From positions 128,001 to 192,000 of the forward strand of contig JANQNK010000001.1 of assembly GCA_028279595.1 (NCBI GenBank): a stretch of 64,000 nucleotides of DNA. The letters run 5' to 3'. The DNA is from Thermoplasmatota archaeon (GTDB lineage Archaea; Thermoplasmatota; JAKEGO01). The notes beneath the pieces are model-generated. The model saw only the letters and a list, made by a program, of their open reading frames with translations. It did no database searches and was not told the DNA's origin. How positions within the stretch are numbered: position 1 is the first letter of the stretch; every line of letters begins with the position of its first letter. The translations under genes were made by a program, and so were the position numbers. Shown in pieces: positions 14,078-40,188 of this stretch.

Positions 14078-15619
14078 ATGACCGCCCTCACCTTCTTTGG
14101 GGGTGTCTCCGAGGTCGGAGGCAACACGATCCTCCTCGAAACTGACGGTCTCCGGGTCCTCATGGACTTCGGTGTCAGTTTCGAAAGGAAGGGGCGTTTC
14201 TTCGAGGAGTTCGTTCAGGTCAGGAACAGGACCCACCTCAGGGACTCCATCGTTCTCGGCCTCGTTCCCCCGCTCGACGGGCTGTACAGGAGCGACCTGG
14301 AGTCTCCACACGGCCTCGAGTCGCTTCAGGTCTACAGGGAGCATCCCGAGCTCTGGCAGACCAGTGTCGTTCCCTGGGAGGAGTCCGAGGACCGTGTCGA
14401 CGCCATGCTACTCACCCACGCCCACCTGGACCACTCTGCCCACATCCCGCTCATGGACCCCCGGATCCCGATCTACTGTTCCGGCGATACCCGCATCCTG
14501 CTGGAGACCATGGACGATATGGACTCCGGAGTGGAATCCGAGTTCGTGAGGACGACGACGTGGGGATTGAAGTCGACGAAGGGCGGGAAGTTCCCCGGAT
14601 CGCCGAAGATCGGTGAGGTGGAGACGACGGACCGGCTCTACCACACCTTCAGACCTCCCGCCAAGTTCAAGATCGAGGACATCGAGGTATCCGCCTTCCC
14701 GGTCGACCACTCCGTCCCCGGGGCCGTCGCGTTCGTCCTTTACACGAGCGACCTGACGATAGCCTACACAGGGGACTTCAGGCTCCACGGGGACCACTCA
14801 CACTGGACCTCCGAGTTCTTCAGCCAGATCGCCGGCGAGGTGGACGTCTTCATCACCGAGGGGACCAGGATACACGAGGAGAGCACCGACAGCGAGCAGG
14901 CCGTCAGGGACGAGGCCACCGCACTGATAGAGAACTCCAACGGCCTGGTGATGGTCGGCTACTCGTGGAAGGACCTGATGCGCACGAAGTCGATGCTCGA
15001 GGTCTCCAGGCGGACTGGACGCGAGCTCGTCATCTCGCCCAGGACGGCGTACTTCCTTTACAAGATGGGCTCCCACGTCGAGGCGATCGTCGGCCTCAAC
15101 GTGTATACCCCGAGGAAAGGCTCGATGATCTACGCACCGAACGATTATTCCGCCGAGAAGTACCTCGCCGGATACGCCCTCGACTGGTCGGGGGACAAAC
15201 CTGATATGACCCACCTCAACGACGGCGTGCGGGCATACGATATCGCCAGGAACCCGAACAGGTACCTCCTCCACCTAGATCTCTTCTCGTTCAACGAGCT
15301 GCTCGACCTCGGAAGGCTCGAGGGGAGCATCTATCTCAAGGCCCAGAGCGAGCCCTTCAGCGAGGAGATGTCCATAGGCGAGGACAGGATCTTGAACTGG
15401 TTCTCCTTCTGGAACATCAATCCGCCCGACCACATGCCGATCGACATCCGCGCCTCCGGCCACGCCGCCGGACCGGACATCCATGCTGCGATAGAGATGG
15501 TCCAGCCCAGGCTCCTCGTACCGGTGCACACCGACCACCCCGAGATGTTCCCCGACAACATCAACATGCTGAACCCCGAGGTCGGCGTCAGGTACGACCT
15601 GTCGTCGTTGGTGCAATAG
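14078..15619 (+). CDS. Metallo-beta-lactamase/beta-CASP fold nuclease (RNase J-like family)
   Basis: GGVSEVGGN, LTHAHLDH, VDHSVPGA, YTGDFR, ASGHA, VPVHT. Confidence 0.8.
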   Translation: MTALTFFGGVSEVGGNTILLETDGLRVLMDFGVSFERKGRFFEEFVQVRNRTHLRDSIVLGLVPPLDGLYRSDLESPHGLESLQVYREHPELWQTSVVPWEESEDRVDAMLLTHAHLDHSAHIPLMDPRIPIYCSGDTRILLETMDDMDSGVESEFVRTTTWGLKSTKGGKFPGSPKIGEVETTDRLYHTFRPPAKFKIEDIEVSAFPVDHSVPGAVAFVLYTSDLTIAYTGDFRLHGDHSHWTSEFFSQIAGEVDVFITEGTRIHEESTDSEQAVRDEATALIENSNGLVMVGYSWKDLMRTKSMLEVSRRTGRELVISPRTAYFLYKMGSHVEAIVGLNVYTPRKGSMIYAPNDYSAEKYLAGYALDWSGDKPDMTHLNDGVRAYDIARNPNRYLLHLDLFSFNELLDLGRLEGSIYLKAQSEPFSEEMSIGEDRILNWFSFWNINPPDHMPIDIRASGHAAGPDIHAAIEMVQPRLLVPVHTDHPEMFPDNINMLNPEVGVRYDLSSLVQ

Positions 15620-15696
15620 AAGTGGAATTCCCTGTCGTTATCTTATTATACACCTTCTCTATAATACCCCCACTCGTGGCTCAGGTCACGTCGTCC

Positions 15697-15797
15697 AGCA
15701 AAATGCCCCGGTAGTGTCACGGGTGAAGTCCAAGGCCTTCACCCTGCTCGGGCGATCTGATCGCCCTCGAGCGACCTATCATCAGGCCTCGATGATA
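15697..15797 (+). repeat. Partial copy of the tRNA-Asp 5' end interrupted by a 52-nt double-hairpin insert (family A)
   Basis: AGCAaaATGCCCCGGTAGTGT[15718-15769]AGCGaCCTATCATC compared with the gene AGCAatATGCCCCGGTAGTGTAGCGGCCTATCATC. Confidence 0.85.
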
Positions 15798-15817
15798 ACC
15801 GGGTCCATTAGCAATAT

Positions 15818-15890
15818 GCCCCGGTAGTGTAGCGGCCTATCATCTCGGCCTGTCGAGCCGAGGACACGGATTCAAATTCCGTCCGGGGCG
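15818..15890 (+). tRNA. tRNA-Asp (GTC)
   Basis: Cloverleaf GCCCCGG...CCGGGGC-G; anticodon arm TCGGC-CT-GTC-GA-GCCGA; T loop TTCAAAT; CCA not encoded. Confidence 0.97.
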
Positions 15891-15915: not shown

Positions 15916-16007
15916 GCGCCCCGGACTCTCGTGAAGTTAATCCAACAGATTTCTGCCATTGATATTACAATGTGTACGGTCATAACCTTCACGATCCGTC
16001 CGGGGCG
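15916..16007. repeat. Palindrome with tRNA-Asp 3'-end arms around a TCGTGAAG/CTTCACGA stem (family C)
   Basis: GCGCCCCGGAC-TC-TCGTGAAG-(~50 nt AT-rich)-CTTCACGA-TCC-GTCCGGGGCG. Confidence 0.85.
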
Positions 16008-35733: not shown

Positions 35734-35840
35734 TGGTCCCGACTCCCGGATTTGAACCGGGGACCTGCCGGTCTCGGCAGCATGGCAGAGAGCCAATGGA
35801 TCTACAGCCGGCCGCTCTAGCCAGTCTGAGCTAAGTCGGG
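35734..35840 (-). tRNA. tRNA-Tyr (GTA) with 29-nt intron at 37/38 (35773-35801) and encoded CCA
   Basis: CCCGACT...AGTCGGG-A-CCA; GCCGG-CT-GTA-G[intron]A-CCGGC; GTTCAAATC. Confidence 0.93.
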
Positions 35841-35898
35841 ACTAATGCGGAAAAGAAGGAATGCCATATAAATATCTTTCATAGACGGCCGGCCGCCG

Positions 35899-36010
35899 CC
35901 CGCTCTACGAGGGAACGTGAGTTCCCGAGCACGCACATCCGTAGGGTGTGCTGTGGCCAGTCTGATCTAAGTCGGGACCCAAGCGGTAAAGAAGGAATGC
36001 CAAATGAATA
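35899..36010 (-). repeat. Partial copy of the tRNA-Tyr 5' end and upstream region interrupted by a 48-nt double-hairpin insert (family A)
   Basis: CCCGACTTAGaTCAGACTGGC[35955-35908]TAGAGCGG; upstream flank also duplicated (GCGG.AAAGAAGGAATGCCA). Confidence 0.85.
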
Positions 36011-36033
36011 ACTTTGATGCGGGGGCCCGTGGT

Positions 36034-38277: not shown

Positions 38278-40188
38278 ATGCCGCTGAAGCAAGTGTATCA
38301 GCAGGTAGAGGAAACTATAAAACAGATCGTCCCATCGACGGTCAAGATATCCAGCATCGAGTTCGAGGGACCCGTCATCGTCATCTACACGAAGACGGTC
38401 GGCGAGTTCGCCGACAACGGTGAACTGATCAAGAAGCTGGCACAGGCTCTCCGCCGGAGGGTCTCGATACGGCCCGATCCGTCAATCCTAGCGGACATGG
38501 ACACTGCGGACAAGGTCATCCGGGAACTGATATCCGAGGAGGCCGGGATCACCGACATTTTCTACCAGTACGACACCGGCGAGGTCATCATCGAGGTGAA
38601 GATGCCAGGTCTGGCCATCGGGAAGTTCGGCTCGACCCTCAACGAGATCAAGAAGAGGATCGGCTGGGCCCCGAAGGTCATCAGGACGCCCCCGATCGAG
38701 AGCAGGACCATAATGGACATCCGCGGATACCTGCGGAGCGTCGGCAAGGAGAGGCGCAAGTTCCTGAAGAAGGTCGGCGACAAGATCGTCCGGGGCACCG
38801 GCACGAAACAGAACTGGGTCCGCGTGACCACTCTTGGCGGTTTCAGGGAGGTCGGCCGGAGCTGTTCTCTCCTGTCAACGGCCAACAGCAAGGTGCTGAT
38901 TGACCTCGGCGTGAACGTTTCATCCGATGACAACGTCTCACCGTTCCTCAATGCACCAGAGGTCATGCCCCTGGACAGCATCGACGCCATCGTCCTGACC
39001 CACGCACATCTCGATCACTGCGGCCTCGTCCCGGTGATGTTCAAGTATGGATACGACGGCCCGGTCTACTGCACCCAACCGACGAGGGACCTCGCGGCGC
39101 TCCTGCAGCTCGATTACGTCAAGGTCGCGGCATCCGACACCAAGAAGACACCATACGATTCCGGAAACATCAGGGATGCGGTTACGCACACCATCACGCT
39201 CAAGTACGGGGAGACCACGGACATAACGCCCGACGTCCGGCTAACTCTCCACAACGCAGGCCATATCATAGGATCGTCCATCTGTCACTTCCATGTCGGG
39301 GACGGTCTCCACAACATCGCCTTCACGGGCGACATGAAGTACGAGAAGACACTGCTCTTCAACTCCGCCGTCAACAGGTTCCCGCGTCTCGAGACCCTCG
39401 TGATGGAATCGACCTATGGCGGCAGGAAGAGCATCCAGCCCTCGAGGAAGGAGGCCATCGACTCGCTCAAGACGGAGATCGCGCACACCCTCGACAGGGG
39501 AGGCAGTGTCCTCATCCCGGTGTTCGCGGTCGGCCGGAGCCAGGAGGTCATGCTCGTCCTCGAGCAGCTCATGCGTACGGACCAGATGAAGAAGGTGCCG
39601 ATCTACCTCGACGGTATGATATGGGAGGCCACCGCCATCCATACGGCATACCCCGAGTACCTGAACACCCAGCTCAGGAAGATGATCTTCCAGCAGAGCG
39701 ACAATCCGTTCCTTTCCGAGATCTTCGCCCGTGTGGACTCAGTCCAGATGCGGAACGAGATCAAGGAGTCCGAGGAGCAGTGCATCGTCCTCGCGACGGC
39801 CGGCATGCTCAACGGCGGCCCCGTCCTGGAGTACTTCAAGCAGTGGGCGCCGGACGAGAAGAACGGCATCATATTCGTCGGATACCAGGCCGAGGGCACC
39901 ATCGGAAGGAAGGTCCAGAGGGGATGGGAGGAGATCCCGCTCCAACACTACGGCTCCTCGCAGACCATCAAGGTCGGGATGAAGATCAGCACCGTCGACG
40001 GTTTTTCCGGACACTCGGACAGGAGACAGCTGATGAACTACATCCACAAGATGGACCCGAAGCCCGAGCGCATCATCATCGGCCACGGCGACGAGACGAA
40101 ATCCCACGACCTCGCCAGCTCGCTCTATCGCAGGTACGGTATCGAGACCCGCGTGCCGATGAACCTGGAGACCATCAGGTTCAGGTGA
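38278..40188 (+). CDS. fttA: Beta-CASP ribonuclease aCPSF1 / termination factor FttA
   Basis: Two KH domains, LGGFREVGRS, THAHLDH, AGHIIGS, ESTYG, DGFSGHSD, NLETIR; adjacent to psmB. Confidence 0.95.
   Translation: MPLKQVYQQVEETIKQIVPSTVKISSIEFEGPVIVIYTKTVGEFADNGELIKKLAQALRRRVSIRPDPSILADMDTADKVIRELISEEAGITDIFYQYDTGEVIIEVKMPGLAIGKFGSTLNEIKKRIGWAPKVIRTPPIESRTIMDIRGYLRSVGKERRKFLKKVGDKIVRGTGTKQNWVRVTTLGGFREVGRSCSLLSTANSKVLIDLGVNVSSDDNVSPFLNAPEVMPLDSIDAIVLTHAHLDHCGLVPVMFKYGYDGPVYCTQPTRDLAALLQLDYVKVAASDTKKTPYDSGNIRDAVTHTITLKYGETTDITPDVRLTLHNAGHIIGSSICHFHVGDGLHNIAFTGDMKYEKTLLFNSAVNRFPRLETLVMESTYGGRKSIQPSRKEAIDSLKTEIAHTLDRGGSVLIPVFAVGRSQEVMLVLEQLMRTDQMKKVPIYLDGMIWEATAIHTAYPEYLNTQLRKMIFQQSDNPFLSEIFARVDSVQMRNEIKESEEQCIVLATAGMLNGGPVLEYFKQWAPDEKNGIIFVGYQAEGTIGRKVQRGWEEIPLQHYGSSQTIKVGMKISTVDGFSGHSDRRQLMNYIHKMDPKPERIIIGHGDETKSHDLASSLYRRYGIETRVPMNLETIRFR

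What the first reader, a model, noticed from the sequence alone, without database searches (positions are those of the whole stretch)
15718..15769. Family A insert: CAC-hairpin-TGCTC-GGG hairpin CCC-TCG in the D arm of tRNA 5' copies (also 35908-35955)
Seen, in tRNA orientation. Asp insert: CAC GGGTGAAG tccaaggc CTTCACCC TGCTC GGGCGATC t GATCGCCC TCG (52 nt). Tyr insert: CAC aGCACACCC tac GGATGTGC g TGCTC GGGAAC tcac GTTCCC TCG (48 nt). The ends (CAC, TCG) and the linker TGCTCGGG are identical, while the stem interiors are completely different yet still paired. Both sit in or at the edge of the D loop with no target duplication, and tRNA sequence resumes right after. The Tyr copy also duplicates about 35 nt of upstream flank. 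Inference: a structure-selected element inserted without a target-site duplication, as in HUH/ssDNA-type insertion.
Basis: partly seen in the sequence, partly recalled or inferred. Interest (0 to 1): 0.75.

Follow-up and report, generated by a model that had tools for sequence, protein, structure and literature searches.

The report
Hairpin module inside spare tRNA starts
A conserved two-hairpin DNA module sits at an exact point inside spare copies of the first bases of tRNA genes in an uncultured Thermoplasmata archaeon and its relatives; it is the front-end, mirror-image partner of the hairpin modules this scan already found behind tRNA genes, and no described element or RNA family matches it.

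Summary
Both stretches read CAC, hairpin, TGCTC, GGG-hairpin-CCC, TCG. Each sits precisely in the D-loop (13/14 and 20/21) of an upstream partial copy of the neighbouring tRNA. There is no target duplication, and tRNA-like sequence resumes afterwards. A third copy lies upstream of tRNA-Arg(CCT) on another contig.

New here:
- The same module occupies the same tRNA positions in relatives: Asp in a close relative and a sister genus, Tyr in another family of the order, and Arg(CCT) in a sister genus and a distant lineage.
- The stems differ but stay paired, and the short single-stranded motifs are kept.
- Mirror-image versions sit in the T-loop of 3' tRNA-end copies.

So Family A is the 5'-side member of the tRNA-end-matched hairpin modules that this scan reported before behind tRNA genes of this genome.

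The HUH/ssDNA-transposon reading is not supported. The genome shows no Y1 transposase, the inserts share no target motif, the copies share no stem sequence, and the sites are old and orthologous. It is also not a splicing-endonuclease intron.

My best reading (about 0.4) is a gene-less palindromic DNA module at the inner edge of miniature attachment-site-like tRNA-end duplications, transcribed passively in the pre-tRNA leader. A functional leader RNA is the main rival (about 0.3).

The parts
15640..15667 (+). AT-rich TATA-like stretch upstream of the Asp companion; probable promoter of companion plus tRNA-Asp
   Evidence: 29 nt are identical in the close relative L252, while the leader next to it carries a 13-nt indel. 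The promoter role is inferred by eye and was not tested.
15705..15717 (+). Spare copy of tRNA-Asp positions 1-13
   Evidence: 13/13 identical to the tRNA-Asp gene at 15818.
15718..15769 (+). Family A insert (Asp). CAC 15718-15720; hairpin 1 15721-15744; TGCTC 15745-15749; hairpin 2 15750-15766; TCG 15767-15769
   Evidence: Orthologous copies lie in L252 and G001.
15770..15805 (+). Resumed, degenerate tRNA-Asp sequence (positions 14 to about 38). It holds a third hairpin (15777-15797) and a strand (about 15798-15805) that pairs back to the spare 5' copy
   Evidence: Blast and regex match of the middle segment. Whole-element fold z -4.2 to -4.3, closed by an acceptor-like stem.
15818..15890 (+). 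Functional tRNA-Asp(GTC) gene
   Evidence: ARAGORN and Rfam RF00005, 56.8 bits.
35977..36025 (-). Duplicated upstream (promoter-like) flank in front of the Tyr spare copy
   Evidence: Ungapped alignment to the flank of the real tRNA-Tyr, 56/70 identical including the tRNA part.
35956..35976 (-). Spare copy of the first 21 nt of tRNA-Tyr (20/21 identical)
35908..35955 (-). Family A insert (Tyr). CAC 35955-35953; hairpin 1 35951-35933; TGCTC 35931-35927; hairpin 2 35926-35911; TCG 35910-35908
   Evidence: The same site is filled in G002 with wholly different stems.
35880..35907 (-). Resumed, degenerate tRNA-Tyr sequence (D-stem 3' strand to about the anticodon loop) with a GC-rich palindrome
   Evidence: A remnant of its distal end is kept in the relative L019, which lacks the copy and the insert.
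35737..35840 (-). Functional tRNA-Tyr(GTA) gene with a canonical 29-nt intron
   Evidence: Rfam RF00005, 52.6 bits. ARAGORN with introns allowed.

Best explanation
Family A is a gene-less, palindrome-forming DNA module: CAC, hairpin, NGYTC linker (TGCTC here), hairpin, TCG. It sits in the loop between the two strands of a tRNA stem, inside a spare, duplicated end-piece of a tRNA gene. In this window that is the D-loop of 5' copies placed just upstream of tRNA-Asp and tRNA-Tyr. It is the 5'-side, mirror-image member of the tRNA-end-matched hairpin modules that follow about 40% of this genome's tRNA genes.

The whole unit is spare end, module, decayed remainder, sometimes a strand that pairs back, then the intact tRNA. 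It has the layout of a miniature attachment-site-type duplication: direct repeats of a tRNA end with a short gene-less filling. The module marks the inner edge of the exact repeat.

Shown:
- precise placement;
- conserved short motifs and maintained pairing;
- orthologous persistence over long times, with occasional loss;
- stacking in tandem;
- both orientations, with the CAC side always facing the acceptor-end piece;
- no sense-strand bias in folding.

Inferred:
- It was installed by site-specific or structure-guided recombination. The genome has tyrosine integrases and real integrated elements that use tRNA ends.
- It is recognised as DNA.
- It is transcribed only passively, as part of the pre-tRNA leader.
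For: (1) Exactness and association. All three strong copies in G000 abut a 5' tRNA copy. Hits outside the training set are again inside tRNA-end copies: G088 upstream of tRNA-Arg(CCT) and G107 behind tRNA-Met.

(2) Mirror symmetry. In G107, G088 (three loci) and G001, Family-A-like inserts lie in the T-loop of 3' copies on the opposite strand. On the strand read CAC to TCG, the left flank is the acceptor-end piece and the right flank resumes the loop and inner stem strand.

(3) No RNA-sense signature. The hairpins are almost purely Watson-Crick. The sense strand is the more stable one in 3/8 Family A copies and 7/19 3' modules, against 32/38 tRNAs.

(4) Stacking and tandem units. These occur at G088 tRNA-Arg(CCT), G002 tRNA-Ala(TGC), and G088 tRNA-Asp, tRNA-Arg(TCG) and tRNA-Ser.

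(5) Sharp boundary. The spare end is identical to the tRNA up to the module and decayed after it.

(6) Context. The genome has seven tyrosine integrases, four of them beside tRNA genes. Two real integrated elements of 14.6 and 10.2 kb are bounded by T-loop-to-3'-end repeats.

(7) Precedent. A 5' tRNA fragment upstream of its tRNA, made by an integrase element, and an attachment site carrying an extra inserted sequence are described in PMC3293823.
Against: - No integrase or other enzyme gene lies next to any copy. The units are only about 100-140 bp, very small for double-stranded circles.
- The D-loop is not a known integrase sublocation (my knowledge of Williams 2002).
- Copies are few (three per genome) and share no stem sequence.
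- No filled/empty pair was found among near-identical genomes. The relatives that lack the insert (L019, L254, G002 for Arg) look like deletions of an older unit, not empty sites.
- The motifs CAC, TGCTC and TCG, and the pairing, are kept over deep divergence. Hairpin 1 shows the same kind of double compensated change as the tRNA's own anticodon stem between two close relatives. That fits a present-day function, possibly as RNA.
- At Asp (G000, L252, G001) and Tyr (G002) the only TATA-like box lies upstream of the unit, so the module must be transcribed with the tRNA (by eye).
Confidence: 0.4

Rival explanations
1. Functional RNA. The spare 5' copy plus the two hairpins form a structured domain of the pre-tRNA leader, or a small companion RNA released by RNase P. 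The three short single-stranded motifs would serve as a protein-binding or processing signal that affects maturation, stability or folding of the neighbouring tRNA.
For: - The only TATA-like box at Asp (G000, L252, G001) and at Tyr in G002 lies upstream of the unit. That stretch is 29/29 identical between G000 and L252.
- Whole units fold as closed, cloverleaf-like junctions with z about -3.7 to -4.3.
- Pairing is maintained by compensated changes at the same pace as a tRNA stem.
- The motifs are conserved across order-level and deeper divergence.
Against: - There is no sense-strand advantage in folding and almost no G-U pairs, unlike tRNAs.
- The same module occurs inverted behind tRNA genes. 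In G107 it follows a T-rich terminator-like run, so the sense RNA there would carry the complementary motifs.
- The module has often been lost: L019, L254, G002 Arg, and 26 other Arg loci lack it.
- No Rfam family matches.
- The Tyr units lack the closing stem.
Confidence: 0.3
2. One reading: a miniature single-strand-DNA transposon of the HUH (IS200/IS605, PATE or REP-like) kind, which inserts its two end hairpins without a target duplication.
For: - The insert has two hairpins with short conserved flanks and is placed precisely without duplication.
- It occurs in either orientation relative to the tRNA gene.
- It folds equally well on both strands.
Against: - No Y1 (HUH) transposase in G000, with positive controls working. 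The only TnpB-like match is a sub-threshold 21.9-bit hit.
- No shared target tetra- or pentanucleotide precedes the element.
- Only 3 nt lie outside each hairpin.
- Copies in one genome share no stem sequence.
- The sites are orthologous and old.
Confidence: 0.07
3. No function. A local tandem duplication of promoter plus tRNA 5' part decayed, and palindromes in it are kept perfect by template-switch (quasi-palindrome) correction during replication rather than by selection.
For: - The Tyr unit can be explained as an 88-bp tandem duplication at a GC-rich microhomology.
- The pairing is purely Watson-Crick with no strand bias.
- Hairpins vary between recent tandem units at G088 tRNA-Asp.
- The units are often lost.
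Against: - Unselected linkers should decay fastest. Yet CAC, the NGYTC linker and TCG are shared by Asp, Tyr, Arg, Ala and Met contexts in five genomes from at least three deep lineages.
- The same two-hairpin geometry recurs at exact loop positions.
Confidence: 0.1
4. A non-canonical archaeal tRNA intron (bulge-helix-bulge type) in a second, split or pseudo tRNA gene.
For: - The insertion is exact and in the D-arm region, where non-canonical introns occur in some archaea (own knowledge).
- tRNA-Tyr here has a canonical intron.
Against: - The splice motif needs the last 4+2 nt of the upstream exon to pair with the 4 nt before the last 2 of the intron. The intron ends CCCT+CG (TCCT+CG in G002), while the exons end TAGT+GT, ACTG+GC and GGAT+A.., so no pairing is possible (read).
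- The host copies lack a T-arm and a usable anticodon arm.
- An intact intron-free gene lies next door.
Confidence: 0.02

Closest known systems
Attachment-site duplications of tyrosine-integrase elements in tRNA genes, and their gene-less derivatives (cis-mobilizable elements, CIMEs; PMC5704250, PMC6323972). Also the archaeal 5'-fragment case in Caldiarchaeum (PMC3293823)
   Same: - Direct repeats of a tRNA end flank a short filling next to an intact tRNA gene.
- Units stack in tandem.
- Integrases and genuine integrated elements at tRNA ends exist in the same genome.
- A 5' fragment upstream of the tRNA, and an attachment site carrying extra inserted sequence, have precedent.
   Different: - The units are only about 100-140 bp with no gene at all.
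- The repeat ends in the D-loop, not a described sublocation.
- A conserved two-hairpin module interrupts the tRNA-like sequence, which then resumes.
- The sites are old and orthologous rather than variable between strains.
- No mobility was shown.
tRNA-linked repeats (TLRs) of E. coli tRNA operons
   Same: Short copies of a tRNA gene's own end lie in the spacer next to that gene.
   Different: TLRs are 3'-end repeats in bacteria and carry no conserved hairpin module. Here the copies are 5' ends with a structured insert, in archaea.
REP/BIME/REPIN elements with RAYT transposases, and IS200/IS605-derived PATEs
   Same: These are short gene-less palindromic units with a few conserved bases beside the hairpin. 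Their structure is better conserved than their sequence, and they leave no target duplication.
   Different: - No Y1/RAYT gene was found.
- The module has three copies per genome, not hundreds.
- It is strictly tied to tRNA-end copies.
- There is no GTAG-type tetranucleotide and no common target site.
Integron attC sites and the folded single-strand attP of CTX phage (tyrosine recombinases acting on hairpin DNA; own knowledge)
   Same: These recombination sites are defined by fold plus a few conserved unpaired or flanking bases, with stems free to vary.
   Different: attC is one long imperfect hairpin with GTTRRRY-type ends, next to a cassette gene. Here there are two short perfect hairpins, no cassette, and no integron integrase was sought.
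Non-canonical archaeal tRNA introns and their proposed transposition (Thermoproteales; reviewed in PMC4090602, not read here)
   Same: Short inserts with shared ends are found at exact, varied positions of different tRNA genes, including the D-arm region.
   Different: The module has no bulge-helix-bulge motif. It sits only in truncated spare copies, never in the working gene, and also occurs inverted in 3' copies.

Membership tests
IS200/IS605 family or PATE (HUH single-strand transposon) | A Y1 HUH transposase (Pfam PF01797) encoded in the genome | tested here: not met
   No match in G000 (86% complete). The control search hit 6 of 14 reference genomes.
IS200/IS605 family or PATE (HUH single-strand transposon) | Insertion 3' of one fixed tetra- or pentanucleotide target | tested here: not met
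   The bases before CAC differ in every copy: TGT, GGC, ATA, ATG, GAC.
IS200/IS605 family or PATE (HUH single-strand transposon) | Several near-identical copies in one genome | tested here: not met
   The three G000 copies share only 17 motif bases, and their stems are unrelated.
REP/BIME with RAYT | A RAYT (Y1-type) gene and many dispersed intergenic copies with a conserved tetranucleotide beside the palindrome | tested here: not met
   No Y1 family match. The next-best model hit in the genome, 22.9 bits, is itself a tRNA 3' module.
Archaeal bulge-helix-bulge tRNA intron | A 4-bp helix between the exon end and the intron end, flanked by two 3-nt bulges that hold the splice sites | tested here: not met
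   Read directly: the intron ends (CCCT or TCCT before the last two bases) cannot pair with any of the three exon ends.
Archaeal bulge-helix-bulge tRNA intron | The host is a complete tRNA gene | tested here: not met
   The host copies are not recognised as tRNA, even in the permissive Rfam mode. They lack a T-arm.
Tyrosine-integrase attachment-site duplication / CIME-like unit | Direct repeats of a tRNA end bounding the unit, next to an intact tRNA | tested here: met
   Exact repeats of 13, 21 and 23 nt.
Tyrosine-integrase attachment-site duplication / CIME-like unit | A cognate integrase available in the genome | tested here: inconclusive
   Seven PF00589 genes are present, four beside other tRNA genes. 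None is beside a Family A unit, and none is linked to it.
Tyrosine-integrase attachment-site duplication / CIME-like unit | Presence/absence at an exact junction between related genomes (integration and excision) | tested here: inconclusive
   L019 (Tyr), L254 (Asp) and G002 (Arg) lack the copy and the insert. However, L019 and L254 keep remnants of the distal part of the unit, which looks like deletion rather than an empty site.
Tyrosine-integrase attachment-site duplication / CIME-like unit | Recombination activity on the repeats | not testable with these tools
   This needs in vitro or in vivo assays.
Any described RNA family (Rfam 15) | A match to a curated covariance model | tested here: not met
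   Only the four tRNA genes pass in the window. In E-value mode on both units, the sole result is a 13.6-bit chance-level hit.
tRNA-end-matched hairpin modules of this genome (earlier notes of this scan) | A gene-less, strongly folding unit built on an exact copy of the neighbouring tRNA's own end, with a two-hairpin insert in a tRNA loop | tested here: met
   Mirror-image Family-A-like inserts in T-loops of 3' copies.

The most novel reading that the evidence does not exclude
The modules are the working parts of an undescribed site-specific system. It would recognise the first stem-loop next to the acceptor end of a tRNA gene strand (the D-arm on the sense strand, the T-arm on the antisense strand). 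It would then install or maintain a two-hairpin cassette there, creating or locking a spare copy of the tRNA end. This could be a new kind of structure-guided mobile element. It could also be a host device that disarms tRNA-borne attachment sites or controls tRNA expression.
Probability: 0.2. Interest if true: 0.85.

Novelty: new variant of a known kind. Interest (0 to 1): 0.6.

Why it matters
tRNA genes are the main docking sites for integrating elements in archaea, and how tRNA genes become fragmented, duplicated or interrupted remains an open question. Here a short module defined by fold plus a handful of bases recurs at exact loop positions of spare tRNA ends. It occurs in front of tRNA genes and, mirrored, behind them, and it has persisted across deep lineages of a barely sampled archaeal group.

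If it is a recombination or binding site, it points to an unknown enzyme activity that reads tRNA-gene structure. If it acts as RNA, it is a new class of long structured pre-tRNA leader. Either way, it gives a concrete, testable handle on how tRNA-end duplications arise and are kept.

Tried and rejected
- **Splicing-endonuclease intron:** rejected by reading the exon and intron ends.
- **HUH transposon:** no Y1 transposase. The only TnpB-like match is sub-threshold.
- **Retro-element or primer-copy idea for the tRNA-end copies:** no reverse transcriptase.
- **Rfam:** nothing at gathering or E-value thresholds.
- **Metagenome pattern scans for the Tyr form:** the strict pattern gave 0 hits. The relaxed pattern gave 61 hits, none with the two-hairpin form next to a tRNA-Tyr copy.
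- **Phylum-wide pattern scan for the generic motif:** about a thousand matches, which from the listed rows look like coding sequence; unusable.
- **Whole-genome scans with my covariance models:** these are limited by the tool's first-look filter. The 56-bit G002 Tyr copy was missed twice, so absences from those scans mean little.
- **26 further Thermoplasmatota tRNA-Arg loci:** scored without filters, no module.
- **Hits not next to tRNAs:** G052, G051, G047 and G081 were set aside as chance after a tRNA scan of their loci. The weak R1 hit at window 39672-39733 was not examined and was not recovered by the later models.
- **GCTC/GAGC pairing that extends hairpin 2:** it holds for Asp and Tyr only, so it is not a family feature.
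- **Hairpin 2 of the Arg(CCT) copy:** it contains the TATA-like promoter region, and the G002 locus without the module has a similar purine/pyrimidine inverted pair. That arm may be partly native promoter.

Full report
**What is there**

The window is G000:C4:128001-192000 of a 2.29-Mb, 21-contig, 86%-complete genome. Its class holds only three genomes in the reference set.

On the tRNA-sense strand each is CAC, an 8-bp hairpin, TGCTC, a 6-8-bp hairpin that starts GGG and ends CCC, then TCG. Both fold far better than shuffled sequence as RNA or DNA, and equally well on the opposite strand.

- The Asp insert (15718-15769) follows 13 nt identical to positions 1-13 of the tRNA-Asp gene that starts 100 nt further on. 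After it comes a decayed copy of positions 14 to about 38.
- The Tyr insert (35908-35955, minus strand) follows a 21-nt copy of the start of tRNA-Tyr. After it comes the D-stem 3' strand and a decayed anticodon-arm region.
- The Tyr copy also repeats about 49 nt of promoter-like flank.
- Neither insert has a target duplication.

**More than chance**

The 8-mer linker alone is at chance frequency in the window. The full gapped pattern occurs four times in the genome, against zero for the reversed control. Three of the four lie directly after a 5' tRNA copy. The third is at C5:36233-36302, upstream of tRNA-Arg(CCT), after a 23-nt exact copy of that tRNA's start.

A covariance model built from the Asp insert alone recovered the Arg copy and copies in relatives. 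A six-sequence model then found two copies outside its training set, both inside tRNA-end copies.

Five of the 42 tRNA genes have such 5' copies, and three of those five carry Family A. About 17 have 3' copies.

**Relatives**

| tRNA | Genome | State |
|---|---|---|
| Asp | Close relative L252 (neighbouring gene 92% identical) | Insert with all three motifs intact. Two adjacent hairpin-1 pairs changed on both sides, the same kind of double compensated change seen in the anticodon stem of its tRNA-Asp. The TATA-like stretch upstream of the unit is 29/29 identical. |
| Asp | Sister genus G001 | Decayed 5' copy, two hairpins with weakened motifs, a third hairpin and a 12-bp closing stem. |
| Asp | L254 (neighbouring gene 73% identical) | Lacks the copy and the insert. 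Keeps a remnant of the unit's distal end and has a TATA-like box directly before the tRNA. |
| Tyr | G002 (another family of the order) | Module at the identical D-loop position, with wholly different but paired stems. Only 30 nt and no TATA-like box separate it from the tRNA. |
| Tyr | L019 (neighbouring gene 77% identical) | Lacks the copy and the insert but shares the sequence just after them. |
| Tyr | G001 | Only a decayed trace. |
| Arg(CCT) | G001 | Has the module. |
| Arg(CCT) | G002 | Lacks the module. |
| Arg(CCT) | G088 (sole held member of its order) | Has the module at the same position, stacked behind a second similar unit. |
| Arg | 26 other Thermoplasmatota loci | No module. 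|

Across the six best copies, 89.5% of cells are paired, against 47-57% when the partners are slid. Ten of 18 pairs change on both sides. That alignment was fitted to the structure, so these figures lean towards it.

**The mirror image**

I fetched tRNA flanks of G002, G088 and G001.
- 5' copies occur at 4/30, 5/26 and at least 1/23 tRNAs. 3' copies occur at 12/30, 14/26 and 7/23.
- Unfiltered scoring found Family-A-like inserts behind tRNA genes on the opposite strand, in G107 (tRNA-Met), three G088 loci and one G001 locus.
- In each, on the strand read CAC to TCG, the left flank is the reverse complement of the tRNA's 3' end up to the T-loop. The right flank resumes the rest of the T-loop and the inner T-stem strand.
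- The linker varies as NGYTC, and TCG is nearly constant.

So the module's orientation is fixed relative to the acceptor-end piece, not relative to transcription of the tRNA. Family A is therefore the D-loop, 5'-side form of the two-hairpin loop inserts that earlier notes of this scan described behind tRNA genes of this genome. I tested this link here rather than taking it on trust.

**DNA or RNA?**

For RNA:
- The units must be transcribed at Asp and at G002 Tyr, because the only promoter-like box lies upstream of them.
- The whole Asp and Arg units close into cloverleaf-like junctions.
- Pairing evolves as in a tRNA stem.

For DNA:
- The hairpins are almost purely Watson-Crick.
- The sense strand is the more stable one in only 3/8 Family A copies and 7/19 3' modules, against 32/38 tRNAs.
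- The module works in both orientations.
- Units stack in tandem.
- The exact repeat ends precisely at the module.

The genome has seven tyrosine integrases and two real integrated elements bounded by T-loop-to-3'-end repeats, though without hairpin modules beside them. I give the DNA-module reading about 0.4 and the functional-leader reading about 0.3.

**What it is not**

- There is no Y1 HUH transposase. The only TnpB-like match is sub-threshold. There is no reverse transcriptase.
- No shared target bases precede the insert.
- No Rfam family matches.
- No bulge-helix-bulge motif can form, because the insert's end cannot pair with any of the exon ends.

**Literature**

- A 5' tRNA fragment upstream of its tRNA, produced by an integrase-bearing element, and an attachment site carrying an extra sequence, are described for Caldiarchaeum (PMC3293823).
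- Gene-less att-flanked units (CIMEs) and tRNA-linked repeats appear in papers my searches listed but I did not read.
- My searches found nothing describing hairpin modules in spare tRNA ends. The library is incomplete, so this is no proof of novelty.

**Limits**

- No expression data were available, and no enzyme is linked to the module.
- Relatives are few.
- The promoter calls were made by eye.
- The whole-genome model scans miss true copies: the G002 Tyr copy was missed twice.
- The metagenome scans for the Tyr form found nothing usable.

Noticed in passing
G000:C5:36210-36346 (L009:311-447), outside the window: The tRNA-Arg(CCT) unit is a 137-bp tandem repeat. The TATA-like promoter region lies inside the long loop of 'hairpin 2', and an almost full second copy of that region lies upstream of the spare 5' copy. 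The aEF-1alpha gene starts about 120 nt after the tRNA.
   Followed up: partly
window 15916-16007, and L002:1620-1796 in G001, L252:3360-3520: Behind tRNA-Asp lies a long palindrome whose base is an inverted plus a direct copy of the tRNA's 3' end around an AT-rich loop. It is conserved, and tandemly repeated, in G001 and in the close relative L252.
   Followed up: partly
G088:C78 (L222), upstream of tRNA-Asp: Four tandem units of about 59-83 nt lie here. Each unit is flank, 12-nt spare tRNA start, one hairpin, then a strand complementary to the spare start. The linkers are constant while the hairpin differs between units.
   Followed up: no
G002:C66 (L181) and G002:C111 (L186): tRNA-Ala(TGC) has two stacked 5' units. 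The proximal one is Family-A-like (20.7 bits). The distal one belongs to another hairpin family (linker TTAC) that is shared with the unit upstream of tRNA-Ala(GGC).
   Followed up: no
G000:C7:7343-21946 and G000:C9:44276-54575: Two genuine integrated elements (14.6 kb at tRNA-Pro, 10.2 kb at tRNA-Ala) are bounded by 18-nt repeats running from the T-loop to the 3' end. Each has an integrase gene at one end.
   Followed up: partly
window 35734-35840 (-): tRNA-Tyr(GTA) has a canonical 29-nt intron and an encoded CCA. ARAGORN without intron mode miscalls it as tRNA-Glu(CTC).
   Followed up: yes
window 14078-15619 (+): The gene just upstream of the Asp unit is an MBL-fold hydrolase whose more distant homologues (45% identity or less) are labelled ribonuclease J. 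Its position next to a structured pre-tRNA leader may or may not be meaningful.
   Followed up: no
G000:C1:145975-146138 and G000:C14:87188-86977 (-): The other two 5' copies in this genome (tRNA-Lys, 26+ nt; tRNA-Leu, 16 nt) carry different fillings. Leu has two hairpins without the CAC/TGCTC/TCG motifs. Lys has no D-loop insert.
   Followed up: partly
window 39672-39733 (-): A weak match (21.8 bits) of the single-sequence Asp model, not next to a tRNA and not recovered by the later models.
   Followed up: no
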